IMG/VR virus record: IMGVR_UViG_3300027751_000029
Span: 1 to 38,258 of that record
Source of the DNA: a virus
Lineage: Duplodnaviria > Caudoviricetes
Strand: one strand, 5' to 3'
Length of the DNA stretch: 38,258 nucleotides
Notes under the pieces: model-generated
The model's database searches: none
The model's input: the letters and a program-made list of their open reading frames with translations, nothing else
What the model was told of the DNA's origin: nothing
Made by a program: the position numbers and the translations under genes
Part shown: positions 7,717 to 11,295 of the stretch, one piece after another
Layout of the letters: each line of letters opens with the position of its first letter
Numbering within the stretch: position 1 is the stretch's first letter

Positions 7717-8088
7717 ATGGTTTTTAAGCATAAAGAGGACGATGACGAGATGACGCAGAAAACGAAAGAGTGGCTCGCTCAATTTTCAGACTGGGCGATC
7801 AAGTTGATGATCGTTGGTATTTTTGGTTTTGGTTATCACGTATCGAAGACGCAAGATGAAATGCTGATGCAATTTGCACTACAGAAGCAGCAAGAACAGG
7901 CGCACATTGAGGGATTGAAGGCGGCGTTTGATTCGAGAATGATTGCAGCAGAAAAAGATATTCAGGTGATCAAGTCAAATATGGTTTCTCTGGATGTTTT
8001 GAAACGCGTAGAGCAGCAATTAACAATTATTTTATTGCAGTCTGGCATTAAACACAAAGTTGATTTAACGTCCGAGAGTCAAAAATGA
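7717..8088 (+). CDS. Holin/antiholin-like membrane protein
   Basis: Single TM segment (WAIKLMIVGIFGFGY) plus coiled-coil; directly upstream of endolysin. Confidence 0.5.
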   Translation: MVFKHKEDDDEMTQKTKEWLAQFSDWAIKLMIVGIFGFGYHVSKTQDEMLMQFALQKQQEQAHIEGLKAAFDSRMIAAEKDIQVIKSNMVSLDVLKRVEQQLTIILLQSGIKHKVDLTSESQK

Positions 8089-8513
8089 TTAACTCGCGAG
8101 ACATCGGAGAGCTAGAGCCGGTCGTTGCGAACATGACTAGATCGTTTATTGCCAAATGCAAAGAATCCGGCATTGATGTGATCGTGTCATCGACTTACAG
8201 AGATGCAGAATCGCAAAACGCACTCTACGCGCAGGGCAGGACGACGGCAGGCAAGATCGTCACGAATGCAAAAGCGGGGCAGTCGTTCCATAACTATAGA
8301 TGCGCCTTCGACTTCGTGCCTATCGTGAATGGTAAGGCGCAATGGAATGACCTTGCTACGTTCCAGCGATGCGGGGAAATAGCGGAATCCGTGGGCTTGG
8401 AATGGTCAGGTAGATGGAAGGGCAAGCTGCGAGAAATGGCGCATTGTCAGCACACGGGCGGGTTGAAATTAGCGGATTTACAGGCAGGCATTAGACCTTG
8501 GGGCGGGATATGA
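8085..8513 (+). CDS. Endolysin, M15 family L-Ala-D-Glu peptidase
   Basis: YR...Q..LYAQGRT..G.IVTNAK.GQSFHNY..AFD...GLEW.GRW...E..H motifs. Confidence 0.9.
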   Translation: MINSRDIGELEPVVANMTRSFIAKCKESGIDVIVSSTYRDAESQNALYAQGRTTAGKIVTNAKAGQSFHNYRCAFDFVPIVNGKAQWNDLATFQRCGEIAESVGLEWSGRWKGKLREMAHCQHTGGLKLADLQAGIRPWGGI

Positions 8514-8722
8514 AACTCATCAACGAATGGCGCAAGTGCTGGAAGTTCTTCAGCGTGCAGGCCAATGCGCTTGGCGGTGCAATCACAGTCGGCTATGTGA
8601 GTCTGTACGACAAGCTAAAAGACAATTTCCCAGCTAAATATATGGTTGCAATCACTGCTGCCGTGTTCATCCTTGGGATTATCGGGCGTTTGGTGTCGCA
8701 GCAGCCGAAAGATAAGCCGTGA
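8510..8722 (+). CDS. Holin
   Basis: MKLINEWRKCWKFFSVQ...two TM segments...GRLVSQ, a common phage holin pattern. Confidence 0.7.
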   Translation: MKLINEWRKCWKFFSVQANALGGAITVGYVSLYDKLKDNFPAKYMVAITAAVFILGIIGRLVSQQPKDKP

Positions 8723-9222
8723 TTGCGCTCGTGTGGTCTTTCCTTCGCAGTATTAATACTCGCGTATATCTTGGGATAGGCTTGTGTATTGCCACGCTAT
8801 ACGGCTTCCATATTCTCAAAACGCGATATATAGAAGAGGGTAAATCGCTTATATATCAGGAATGGAAAATAGCAGATGCCGAACGCGAGGAAAAAGCAAA
8901 CGATGCACGAATAGCAGAGCAACAGAAACAGGCCTCAATCAACGAATCAATCAAAAAGGGACATGCCCATGAACTCGCTAAAATACATACTTCCTACGCT
9001 ACTGCTAACCGCTTGCGCTTACCCTCAACAGTCTGTGATCAGTTTGCCGCCTCCGGCAAAGGCACAAGCGCCAGCGGAGGCGATGCAGCCGTTACCGGCA
9101 CCGTTGCACTTCCTGAACCGATTGAGCGCGATCTTCGGGGTTTAGCAATGGAGGCAGACACGATGCTTGCTAATTACAGAGCGCTGCAGGAGTTCGTTAA
9201 ACAAAACAGACTAGCGCCATGA
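8719..9222 (+). CDS. Rz-like inner-membrane spanin
   Basis: N-terminal TM, coiled-coil, RLRLP and EAD...RALQ motifs, follows endolysin/holin. Confidence 0.75.
   Translation: MIALVWSFLRSINTRVYLGIGLCIATLYGFHILKTRYIEEGKSLIYQEWKIADAEREEKANDARIAEQQKQASINESIKKGHAHELAKIHTSYATANRLRLPSTVCDQFAASGKGTSASGGDAAVTGTVALPEPIERDLRGLAMEADTMLANYRALQEFVKQNRLAP
8963..9145 (+). CDS. Rz1-like outer-membrane lipoprotein spanin (embedded in Rz)
   Basis: Signal peptide with lipobox LLLTAC, proline-rich mature part, nested out of frame in Rz. Confidence 0.7.
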   Translation: MPMNSLKYILPTLLLTACAYPQQSVISLPPPAKAQAPAEAMQPLPAPLHFLNRLSAIFGV

Positions 9223-9425
9223 TCAGCCTAATCCCGCTTTCAATATTCATCCTTGGCCTCGTGATGTTTTTTGACCGCGATGCATCATTTGCTCAGTGTT
9301 TCCGTGGTCTTTTCCTTATCCTCGTTGCCGTCGTGCTATTCGTCGGAATCGGACTATCTCAAATAATCCCACATGAAAAAACTAATTGTCCTCCTATTAC
9401 TCCTGCCATCCATCGCGTTATGTGA
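9219..9425 (+). CDS. Two-TM hypothetical membrane protein
   Basis: Two hydrophobic helices; ATGA coupling to Rz. Confidence 0.55.
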   Translation: MISLIPLSIFILGLVMFFDRDASFAQCFRGLFLILVAVVLFVGIGLSQIIPHEKTNCPPITPAIHRVM

Positions 9426-9696
9426 AATTGTCACTGTCGATAGTGTTACCTGCGATCTAAAACGTGACAAGCAGGGGCGCATTGCTCGAAGCAGTAAAGC
9501 GGTCAACGAGTTCAAGCGTGCTAATCCTTGCCCAGCAACAAAAAAGATTGAAAAGTCTTGCAAAGGTTATGTAGTCGATCATATCCGACCGCTTTGCGCA
9601 TGTGGTGCCGACAATACACGCAACATGCAATGGCAATTGCTTGCAGAGTCGAAGATTAAGGACAAGTTGGAACGGAAGTTATGCGGCGGTGATTAA
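9373..9696 (+). CDS. HNH endonuclease with N-terminal signal peptide
   Basis: MKKLIVLLLLLPSIALC signal; NPCP...GYVVDHIRPLCACGADNTRNMQWQ HNH core. Confidence 0.75.
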   Translation: MKKLIVLLLLLPSIALCEIVTVDSVTCDLKRDKQGRIARSSKAVNEFKRANPCPATKKIEKSCKGYVVDHIRPLCACGADNTRNMQWQLLAESKIKDKLERKLCGGD

Positions 9697-10061
9697 TCTG
9701 GAAAATTGCCAATTTCCAATCCGTAAGGCAGGTTTTCAATAGCCTGTTTTTTCCCTTCCTCCCTCCCTTGGTCTCGCGCAATCGGCAGCCATTTCTCATA
9801 TCTGCCACGATCATTTATTGATAATTCAAGTCTAACAACGGCACCATCTTTAAAAATTTACGGGAACTCAATTACTTGGCATTTATCAACAATATGATTT
9901 GCTAAATCTCGCGACAAGTCTCTCTTTATTTTTTCTCGCAGAATATGTAAATTGCCTTCAAACGTAATAATATCCCACCTAGAAATAACTCTTTCCACGC
10001 AGAGAGTCATTGGCCTAGGGCGAAAAGTTGGTTCCTCGTGAAAAAGTTCATTGTGTATCAT
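9693..10061 (-). pseudogene. Hypothetical gene interrupted by an in-frame TAA at 9858-9860
   Basis: ATG 10061 with GGGAG RBS; frame continues 54 more codons after the TAA (IFKDGAVV...QGREEGKKQA...FPD). Confidence 0.55.
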
Positions 10062-10095
10062 GCTGTTGTTCTCCCTTTCTTTGTGCGCGTGAAAT

Positions 10096-10279
10096 CCTGT
10101 GTAAATCCTGTGTAAATTGATGCGGTTTTTAGCGGTTTTAAGCGCATTCCTTCGCATCACTATCTAGCATTCATGCGGGTTAGCGGGGATTGCAGCATGT
10201 ATACCTGCCTTCACACGGCGGTGTTAAATCGTTATTTCATGCGGTTTTCCGGCTGCCCTGTGTAAATGCTAGTGTAAAT
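10096..10279. mobile_element. attP: attP site: arm-type repeats flanking a core
   Basis: CCTGTGTAAAT at 10096-10106, 10107-10117, 10257-10267 and CTAGTGTAAAT at 10269-10279 flank CTGCC-TTCACAC-GGCGG (10205-10221); downstream of int. Confidence 0.7.
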
Positions 10280-10291
10280 CATTTTAAAATT

Positions 10292-10366
10292 GGGCGGTTA
10301 ATTCAGCGGTAGAATGTCCGCCTCACACGCGGAATGCCAGTGGTTCGACTCCACTACCGCCCACCA
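10292..10366 (+). tRNA. tRNA-Val (anticodon CAC)
   Basis: GGGCGGT/ACCGCCC acceptor, ATTC/GAAT D-stem, TCCGC-CTCACAC-GCGGA anticodon arm, AGTGG-TTCGACT-CCACT T-arm, A discriminator, encoded CCA. Confidence 0.95.
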
Positions 10367-11295
10367 AATACTTTGTTTAATGCGTCTCTTTGTTTATCCA
10401 CTTTGATATGCGCGTAACGCTCACTCATGCGCGTTGTCGAGTGGCCTAGTATCTTGCTGATCGTGTGCAGGTCAACGCCTGCATGTGCCAATAAAGAGGC
10501 CGTAGAGTGTCTTAAATCGTGGAAGTGAACGTGTGGCATCCCTGCTGCCTCACGTGCGCGCCTAAAGCCTGATTTAAGCCCCTCAATATTGATCGTCATC
10601 GGTACGTACTCAAGCCACGGCAATAATTGATCGATTATCGGCACAGAGCGCATTTTAAGCGTCTTGGTATTTCCTGCTGGTATGGTGATCAAGTCGCGGC
10701 TTATATGCTCCTTGCGTAGCTTGATAATTTCCCCGCGCCGCATCCCTGTGTAAATCGCTATCCAAATTGCGGCTTTCACGTTGTCGCTGGCCTTGTCTGC
10801 GATCTCGCTTACTTGGTCAATCGAAAGATACACTTCACGCGCATTGTTCTCGACTAGCCGTTTAATTTTCTCACCGTAATTAATCGGGATCATCTCGCGT
10901 TCCCATGCTAACGATAATCCTTTCTTTAGCGTCCCAAGCGTTCGGTTGATAGTTGCTGGCTTGAGAGTAGGGGAGAGGTCACGAATCATGTTCATTGCTA
11001 CCGTCTTGGCCTCGCTTGCCTTGCGCCCTGATATGTAAGGCGCTATCCTTACCGCATGTTCTTTTGCAGACTTCGGGCTGCGTAGAGTGTCAGCGTGGAT
11101 CATGTAAAGCGCCATTACTTCGGATAATGGCGGGTCGTTCGTATATTCAACAGTTGAAACTGACTTCTTTAACTCTGCTTCGAGTGTTTCAGCGTCCTTT
11201 TTTGTTGAACCTGGTGGTAATATTCTGTGAATGCGTTGGCCGTGGATGCATACTTCCGCGTGCCAGCGCCCTTCTTTGTCTTTTCTTGTAGGCAC
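10354..11295 (-). CDS. int: Tyrosine integrase
   Basis: TGMRRGEI (R), TKT (K), HDLRH (HxxR), LGH, ERY catalytic motifs; N-terminal arm-binding beta domain. Confidence 0.95.
   Translation of the reverse strand: MPTRKDKEGRWHAEVCIHGQRIHRILPPGSTKKDAETLEAELKKSVSTVEYTNDPPLSEVMALYMIHADTLRSPKSAKEHAVRIAPYISGRKASEAKTVAMNMIRDLSPTLKPATINRTLGTLKKGLSLAWEREMIPINYGEKIKRLVENNAREVYLSIDQVSEIADKASDNVKAAIWIAIYTGMRRGEIIKLRKEHISRDLITIPAGNTKTLKMRSVPIIDQLLPWLEYVPMTINIEGLKSGFRRAREAAGMPHVHFHDLRHSTASLLAHAGVDLHTISKILGHSTTRMSERYAHIKVDKQRDALNKVFGGR

What the first reader, a model, noticed from the sequence alone, without database searches (positions are those of the whole stretch)
10096..10366. attP that breaks a host tRNA-Val and carries a complete, recoded replacement tRNA
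Seen: arm-type repeats (CCTGTGTAAAT x3, CTAGTGTAAAT) bracket an isolated anticodon stem-loop CTGCC-TTCACAC-GGCGG (10205-10221) with no D-arm before it and no T-arm after it. Seventy bases downstream, outside the arms, lies an intact tRNA-Val(CAC) whose anticodon arm differs (TCCGC-CTCACAC-GCGGA). Known: most tRNA-targeting tyrosine integrases restore the gene by duplicating its 3' half in attP; tRNA-dependent lysogeny has been reported in mycobacteriophages. Inference: crossover in the host anticodon loop would destroy the host gene and place the phage tRNA just downstream of the host tRNA promoter. The altered stem and loop would stop the phage copy acting as attB and might alter sensitivity to anticodon nucleases.
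Basis: partly seen in the sequence, partly recalled or inferred. Interest (0 to 1): 0.8.

Follow-up and report, generated by a model that had tools for sequence, protein, structure and literature searches.

The report
Phage splits, replaces host valine tRNA
This phage's integration site keeps only the anticodon loop of a valine tRNA gene, so integrating would likely split the host gene, and a whole spare valine tRNA lies 70 bases further on, where the host's own promoter would likely drive it; it is a compact new layout of a trick published for other phages in 2024.

Summary
Arm-type repeats bracket a bare anticodon stem-loop (10205-10221). A complete tRNA-Val(CAC) with a different stem follows (10292-10366), overlapping the stop of an intact tyrosine integrase. 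Relatives of this integrase (44-74% identical) all target tRNA-Val(CAC). Of 66 classifiable loci, 48 restore the gene in the usual way and 18 have this layout. Two relatives sit in host DNA exactly as predicted: host promoter region, broken 5' half, arm sites, spare tRNA, integrase. Three unrelated satellite-like elements show both split halves in chromosomes. The spares lose the conserved core bases (16 of 18) but mostly keep the loop (14 of 18). That fits escape from the integrase better than escape from anticodon nucleases. The target tRNA is probably dispensable, because Val-TAC is present. A co-occurring sister form lacks this cassette. No lysogen of this phage itself was found, and promoter capture is inferred. 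This is a variant of tRNA-dependent lysogeny (2024), and the scan has noted the same layout before on other DNA.

The parts
10096..10117 (+). Left pair of arm-type integrase sites (P1, P2), CCTGTGTAAAT x2
   Evidence: at -112/-101 from the loop start; the left pair sits at about -112 to -81 in most relatives with DNA on that side. Binding is inferred.
10168..10181 (+). Copy of a 14-nt repeat (others at 10115-10128 and 10234-10247), possible host-factor (IHF-like) sites
   Evidence: family D1. The copy at +25 lies where 7 of 18 relatives carry a perfect IHF consensus at +27 (consensus recalled). The window's copy matches only 6 of 9 positions, which is no better than background.
10203..10221 (+). 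attP core: bare tRNA-Val(CAC) anticodon stem-loop; likely 7-bp overlap TTCACAC at 10210-10216
   Evidence: Loop invariant in 56 of 56 phage-side cores (they were picked by a loop motif); A-7, G-3, C-2, G+2, C+3 conserved in 49-56 of 56. Junctions in relatives bound the crossover at about -3 to +3.
10257..10279 (+). Right pair of arm-type sites (P'1, P'2)
   Evidence: At +49/+62; about +49/+61 in most relatives with this layout, against about +81 to +129 in relatives that carry the tRNA 3' half.
10292..10366 (+). Complete spare tRNA-Val(CAC) with a non-target anticodon arm (TCCGC-CTCACAC-GCGGA)
   Evidence: All four conserved core bases and the first loop base differ from the core. No promoter-like or terminator-like site on + between core and tRNA (best score 7 of 12).
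10354..11295 (-). Tyrosine integrase P0001 (313 aa); its last codons and stop are the reverse complement of the tRNA 3' end
   Evidence: phrog_1 integrase, E 2e-54; PF00589. R186/R187, K211, H259, R262, H285 and Y294 invariant in 79 sequences.
10745..10755 (+). Fifth arm-like copy inside int; role unknown
8085..9222 (+). Context: endolysin, holin and Rz-like spanin on the left of attP, as in lambdoid phages

Best explanation
This is the attachment site of a temperate phage whose integrase likely crosses over in the 7-base anticodon loop of a host tRNA-Val(CAC) gene, which would split that gene, and whose spare tRNA-Val(CAC), lying right behind the right-hand arm sites, would then likely be transcribed from the host's tRNA promoter. 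Steps: (1) Arms, core, spare and integrase are in the sequence (shown). (2) The family targets the Val(CAC) anticodon loop (shown in relatives). (3) With no 3' half in attP, attL carries a dead 5' half and attR a dead 3' half (attL shown for 2 family prophages; both ends shown for 3 unrelated satellite-like elements; inferred for this phage, about 0.9). (4) The host promoter reads through 63-97 nt of arm DNA into the spare, which RNase P and 3' nucleases would cut out (inferred, about 0.65). (5) The spare's different stem keeps it from serving as a second attB or recombining with the core (inferred from conservation, about 0.7). (6) The spare is probably a borrowed natural allele, and it probably improves lysogen fitness rather than being strictly essential (inferred). 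The host is likely a betaproteobacterium of the Oxalobacteraceae/Burkholderiaceae group.
For: Arm spacing centres on the bare loop, not on the tRNA, and shifts by about 44 nt (the length of the missing 3' half) between the two layouts. Family census: 41 usual attP, 7 usual attL, 16 attP with spare and 2 attL with spare, among 66 of 82 integrases with downstream DNA. Provirus L171 (integrase 50% identical) reads host gene, promoter region, broken 5' half, arms, spare, int; L237 (48%) likewise. G934 holds both junctions of a usual-type family prophage, with shared sequence starting 3 bases before the loop. G184, G433 and G267 hold both split halves; in G184 and G433 the spare is the only intact Val-CAC found, and in G267 the two further matches are 3' halves. 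In G184 only 19 nt separate loop and spare. Control: second Val-CAC copies behind an intact first copy keep the host stem in 74 of 74 cases; behind a broken 5' half they differ in 9 of 9. 16 of 18 spares lose G-3/C-2/G+2/C+3 bases. 0 of 18 family spacers reach a promoter score of 8 of 12, against 13 of 17 housekeeping loci.
Against: No attL or attR of this phage was seen in 4 independent DNA runs, and no family prophage with a spare was found with both ends. The closest relatives with the spare (68-74%) were found only as unintegrated attP. The promoter test favours the result: spacers are shorter than the 110-nt controls, and only 5 of 13 true host regions ahead of broken halves scored 8 or more. 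One spare (G359) lies 258 nt behind the loop with its own promoter-like site. Two of 18 spares (L092, L146) keep all four conserved core bases. In 2 of 11 natural attL transcripts (L171, L237, the two family cases) ViennaRNA gave the spare's acceptor stem only 0.07 probability. A sister form without this cassette co-occurs and outnumbers it in some runs.
Confidence: 0.82

Rival explanations
1. The split-and-replace reading holds, but the spare has its own promoter (as in Fionnbharth) or is fed by phage transcription. Its position next to attP is only linkage that keeps the cassette together.
For: Fionnbharth's tRNA has its own promoter (PMC10865867, results). G359's spare has a promoter-like site of its own. 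The promoter scans are crude and miss many real host promoters.
Against: 19-nt spacer in G184. In L096, L123, L137 and L207 the spare starts 1-2 nt after the last arm site. No family spacer scores 8 of 12.
Confidence: 0.25
2. The spare is kept mainly for lytic growth (escape from an anticodon nuclease, or codon supply), and loss of the 3' half from attP is a neutral consequence.
For: The window's spare changes the first loop base. The nuclease-escape idea is published (PMC10264068, search listing only). With attP intact the tRNA lies downstream of the lysis genes on the same strand. The mBio paper raises both orders of events.
Against: 14 of 18 spares keep the loop and change the stem. GTG is only 25% of Val codons in 33 window genes. 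In all 18 loci with a spare it has the target's anticodon and sits directly behind the arms.
Confidence: 0.12
3. The full tRNA is the real attP core, or a host gene carried along by imprecise excision, and the upstream stem-loop is a decayed duplicate.
For: Host tandem Val-CAC genes have similar loop-to-loop spacing (95-125 nt), so such an excision could have started the layout.
Against: The arm pairs bracket the bare loop and no arm pair follows the tRNA. Natural junctions break at the bare loop. The bare loop keeps the conserved core bases and the tRNA does not.
Confidence: 0.04

Closest known systems
tRNA-dependent lysogeny of actinobacteriophages (Fionnbharth K4, Cain K6, cluster L, Gaia X, BrutonGaster/OneUp CQ2, Mollymur DL; Guerrero-Bustamante & Hatfull, mBio 2024, PMC10865867; parts 1-5 of 8 read)
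   Same: Tyrosine integrase with arm-type sites; short core (8-17 bp) at the anticodon region; host gene not rebuilt; phage tRNA of the same isotype and different sequence; close relatives use either strategy.
   Different: Betaproteobacterial host group and tRNA-Val(CAC). The spare lies inside the att cassette, right after the P' arms, with no promoter found; Fionnbharth's overlaps gene 37 and has its own promoter, and most cluster L copies lie in a separate tRNA region. The target is probably dispensable, whereas Lys-TTT was essential. Gaia's tRNA is described as 'downstream of Int'; I could not see the figure or supplements, so adjacency may already be shown there.
vB_MloP_Lo5R7ANS-like prophages at tRNA-Leu(UAG) in Sinorhizobium meliloti (PMC11476347, passages only)
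   Same: Proteobacterial host; att matches the middle of the tRNA; the gene is inactivated and replaced by a tRNA more like that of another species.
   Different: Different tRNA and phage. The passages seen give no attP anatomy, promoter argument or stem analysis.
Conventional tRNA-restoring attP of the same integrase family (for example the prophage in G934)
   Same: Same target loop, same arm motif, same left-arm spacing.
   Different: Carries the tRNA 3' half in attP, has the right arms further out and has no spare.
Lactobacillus johnsonii prophage Lj965 (only as cited in the discussion of PMC10865867)
   Same: Reported not to rebuild the tRNA and to encode a cognate tRNA.
   Different: Not examined here.

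Membership tests
tRNA-dependent lysogeny (PMC10865867) | Phage tyrosine integrase with attB overlapping a host tRNA gene | tested here: met
   Catalytic residues conserved; relatives integrated at tRNA-Val(CAC).
tRNA-dependent lysogeny (PMC10865867) | Short common core; host tRNA not rebuilt at attL or attR | tested here: met
   15 bp match to the commonest host allele and no T-arm; broken 5' halves at attL in L171 and L237. Not seen for this phage itself.
tRNA-dependent lysogeny (PMC10865867) | Phage encodes an intact tRNA of the same isotype | tested here: met
tRNA-dependent lysogeny (PMC10865867) | The disrupted host tRNA is essential | tested here: inconclusive
   Val-CAC is single-copy in most genomes that have it, and 122 of 401 sampled genomes gave no match, many of them incomplete. 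All 4 split-gene genomes keep Val-TAC and Val-GAC. That TAC reads GUG by wobble is recalled knowledge, so essentiality is doubtful.
tRNA-dependent lysogeny (PMC10865867) | Phage tRNA is required for lysogen survival (a deletion gives clear plaques) | not testable with these tools
   Needs a host and a mutant. The sister form without the cassette has 74 unseen letters, so it does not decide this.
Lambda-type attP with heterobivalent integrase | Paired arm-type repeats on both sides of the core, at conserved spacing | tested here: met
   right-arm positions fall in steps of about 10-11 nt across relatives.
Lambda-type attP with heterobivalent integrase | Host-factor (IHF) sites between core and arms | tested here: inconclusive
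   Perfect consensus at +27 in 7 of 18 relatives; 6 of 9 positions in the window (consensus recalled).
Conventional tRNA-restoring attP | attP carries the tRNA 3' half directly after the core | tested here: not met

The most novel reading that the evidence does not exclude
A swappable, promoterless 'trap' cassette lets phages and satellites exchange a host's tRNA allele for one that their integrase cannot use. It is gained and lost often within one integrase family, even between near-identical co-occurring phages. Decayed prophages leave the foreign allele behind, so mobile elements would be driving tRNA-Val(CAC) allele turnover across Burkholderiales, at a gene that is not even essential.
Probability: 0.3. 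Interest if true: 0.72.

Novelty: new variant of a known kind. Interest (0 to 1): 0.5.

Why it matters
It extends tRNA-dependent lysogeny to a betaproteobacterial integrase family in which both strategies can be compared side by side. It suggests a compact mechanism, promoter capture, that makes the spare's expression follow integration. It gives a testable reason why some phage tRNAs differ from the host's in the stem rather than the loop. It also warns that island finders relying on a duplicated tRNA 3' end, and tRNA annotators, may take the spare for the host gene. The core idea is published, and the scan has seen the layout several times, which limits the surprise.

Tried and rejected
Annotated phages hold no close integrase (best rows about 26-30% identity). 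P0001 found nothing at 1e-60 in 401 order-level genomes or at 1e-45 in 231 genomes of G271's family. The other end of provirus L171 is not in its record. False hits dropped: G229 is a chance match inside a coding region, G556 is a partial tandem duplication, and L321 is a contig-end fragment. Of 121 pattern loci, 11 (9 distinct) had a broken first tRNA with a spare; the rest were host tandem genes, single genes or cut ends. RNA-run contigs gave scattered short pieces; one in X17 covers 10266-10449, but contigs show neither strand nor start, so I draw nothing from them. The sister form's 74 letters could not be recovered. A single origin of the layout was not supported: 13 changes on the tree, at least 9 forced by starred branches; this was the quick tree, L012 was dropped, and the one-clade test did not finish. 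Origin by excision from tandem host tRNAs was considered: the spacing fits, but arm geometry explains it equally well. Literature searches with no result.

Full report
Setting. The window is the whole held record (G000), a lambdoid temperate phage with lysis genes, attP, integrase, recombination genes, a repressor pair, and replication, packaging and virion genes. Near-identical DNA occurs in marine, estuary and freshwater runs of several studies; four of the runs may be its source.

Observation. Four arm-like repeats lie at 10096, 10107, 10257 and 10269, and the motif occurs only once elsewhere in the 38 kb, inside int. A bare anticodon stem-loop lies at 10205-10221. One complete tRNA-Val(CAC) lies at 10292-10366. 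The integrase (10354-11295, minus strand) keeps its catalytic residues and ends inside the tRNA's 3' end.

The family has two layouts. Among loci L001-L171 plus L237, 82 distinct integrases scored 240 bits or more against P0001, and 16 had no usable downstream DNA. Of the other 66, 41 carry the loop plus the tRNA 3' half, and 7 carry a single host-type full tRNA (usual attL). Sixteen carry a bare loop plus a full spare: I moved 2 of these (L092, L132) by hand from another class, L001 is this phage itself, and L107 is cut at the core. Two carry a broken host 5' half plus a spare. Seven more came from 231 genomes of G007's family: 2 with a spare (73% and 68% identity), 4 usual attL and 1 usual attP-like site. 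Left arms sit near -102/-91 or -112/-101 in both layouts. Right arms sit at about +49/+61 with a spare and at about +81 to +129 without, in steps of roughly one helical turn. The arms therefore centre on the bare loop, and the shift equals the missing 3' half. On a quick integrase tree of 65 rows the layout changes 13 times, at least 9 forced by well-supported branches (shuffled mean 16), so it is swapped or re-evolved often.

Junctions in host DNA. Provirus L171 reads: a divergent host gene (gltX by my reading of its sequence; the matching genes at L230 and G433 scored as tRNA-synt_1c), promoter region, tRNA 5' half, loop, break, two arm sites, spare, int stop. L237 has the same order. Seven further distinct loci show a broken 5' half plus spare without a family integrase beside it; three of them (L207, L230, L238) retain family-type arm motifs and look like scars. 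G934 holds both ends of a usual-type family prophage, with shared sequence starting 3 bases before the loop. Three 8-12 kb satellite-like elements with unrelated tyrosine integrases show both dead halves: G184, G433 and G267. In G267 the two halves have complementary acceptor strands that differ from the spare's. No family prophage with a spare was found with both ends, and no junction of this phage itself appeared in 4 independent runs.

Why the stem differs. In 56 phage-side cores G-3, C-2, G+2 and C+3 are conserved (52, 49, 56 and 55 of 56). Sixteen of 18 spares lose at least two of them, while only 4 of 18 change the loop. The window's spare loses all four and the first loop base. As a control, second Val-CAC copies behind an intact first copy keep the host stem in 74 of 74 distinct cases, and those behind a broken half differ in 9 of 9 (the pattern fixed only the first stem). 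This fits selection against re-use by the integrase and fits nuclease escape less well. The stems are not necessarily phage inventions. About 30 of the 150 listed Val-CAC matches (of 296, in 279 of 401 genomes; counted by eye) have other stems. Of 20 inspected, 17 sit at ordinary loci, 2 behind a broken half and 1 was a fragment. Whether phages borrowed these alleles or left them behind is open.

Promoter. No promoter-like or terminator-like site was found on + between core and tRNA. A consensus score of 8 of 12 was reached by 0 of 18 family spacers, 1 of 11 other spacers (G359), 13 of 17 housekeeping loci, and 5 of 13 host regions ahead of broken halves. The test is crude and biased by window length. 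The strongest point is geometric: 19 nt in G184, and 1-2 nt between the last arm and the spare in several relatives. Predicted folding kept the spare's acceptor stem at 0.8 or more in 8 of 11 natural attL transcripts, but at only 0.07 in L171 and L237. Promoter capture is therefore likely, not shown.

Essentiality. All 4 split-gene genomes checked keep Val-TAC and Val-GAC. From recalled knowledge, Val-TAC reads GUG by wobble, so the spare may aid fitness rather than survival. GTG is 25% of Val codons in 33 window genes, which gives no case for codon supply. All 4 independent DNA runs also hold a sister form with the same left arm and core, in which 10222-10363 is replaced by 74 other letters; in X7 its depth is 345 against 16.7. 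Four cluster members 96-97% identical to P0001 end in FGAK instead of FGGR, which fits that joint. The 74 letters were not shown.

Host. Close relatives occur in the family of G007, a record titled Oxalobacteraceae, and P0022 (68%) is named from a Burkholderiaceae MAG. The two close bins hold an intact host gene whose loop and stem match the core, but the phage contigs there are unintegrated, so binning is weak evidence.

Comparison. It works like tRNA-dependent lysogeny (PMC10865867; abstract, introduction, results and discussion read; methods and supplements not read). Three defining features are met, essentiality is doubtful and requirement is untestable here, so I file it as a variant and not a proven member. 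A proteobacterial case with a foreign-like replacement is in PMC11476347 (passages); PMC12429752 (passages) reports none in its prophages. Searches for the att-adjacent, promoter-capture layout returned nothing or only these papers, but most subscription journals are not searched. Earlier unreviewed notes of this scan describe the same layout for Val, Ile, Thr, His, Arg and Leu tRNAs; I formed and tested my reading before seeing them.

Verdict. The feature is real. Split-and-replace about 0.9, host-promoter use about 0.65, integrase immunity of the spare about 0.7. New variant of a known kind; interest 0.5.

Noticed in passing
window 10222-10363: A sister form in runs X5, X6, X7 and X13 has these 142 nt replaced by 74 unseen letters and an integrase 3' part with many other letters. 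It is either a usual 3'-half attP or a core-only attP with no tRNA.
   Followed up: partly
window 10354-10366: The integrase stop lies inside the tRNA and no terminator-like site was found, so host-promoter read-through in a lysogen would run antisense into int. Usual-type relatives often abut int as well.
   Followed up: no
L158, about 113 nt from the int stop: Usual-type attP whose 3' half has the spare-type stem strand and a short duplication of the loop; possibly a reversion from the spare layout.
   Followed up: no
L207, L230, L238 at the pattern match: Broken host 5' half, family-type arm sites and spare, with no family integrase adjacent: likely scars that fix the foreign allele in the chromosome.
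   Followed up: partly
G184 C1 1504504-1513431; G433 C1 927001-934706; G267 C1 492135-504211: Satellite-like elements (primase or capsid genes, unrelated tyrosine integrases) use the same split-and-replace layout at Val-CAC. G267 has a second, 37.6-kb stretch ending in another tRNA 3' half, in tandem.
   Followed up: partly
L092 and L371 spares: These spares change the last loop base instead of the conserved stem bases, a second way to break identity with the core.
   Followed up: no
L110, L111, L116, L139, L142, L144, L162: The att site is inverted relative to the integrase gene in some family members.
   Followed up: no
window 9373-9696 and 9858-10160: Two small ORFs between lysis genes and attP with no PHROG or Pfam match. 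The first may be HNH-like by my reading of its Cys/His pattern; not tested.
   Followed up: no
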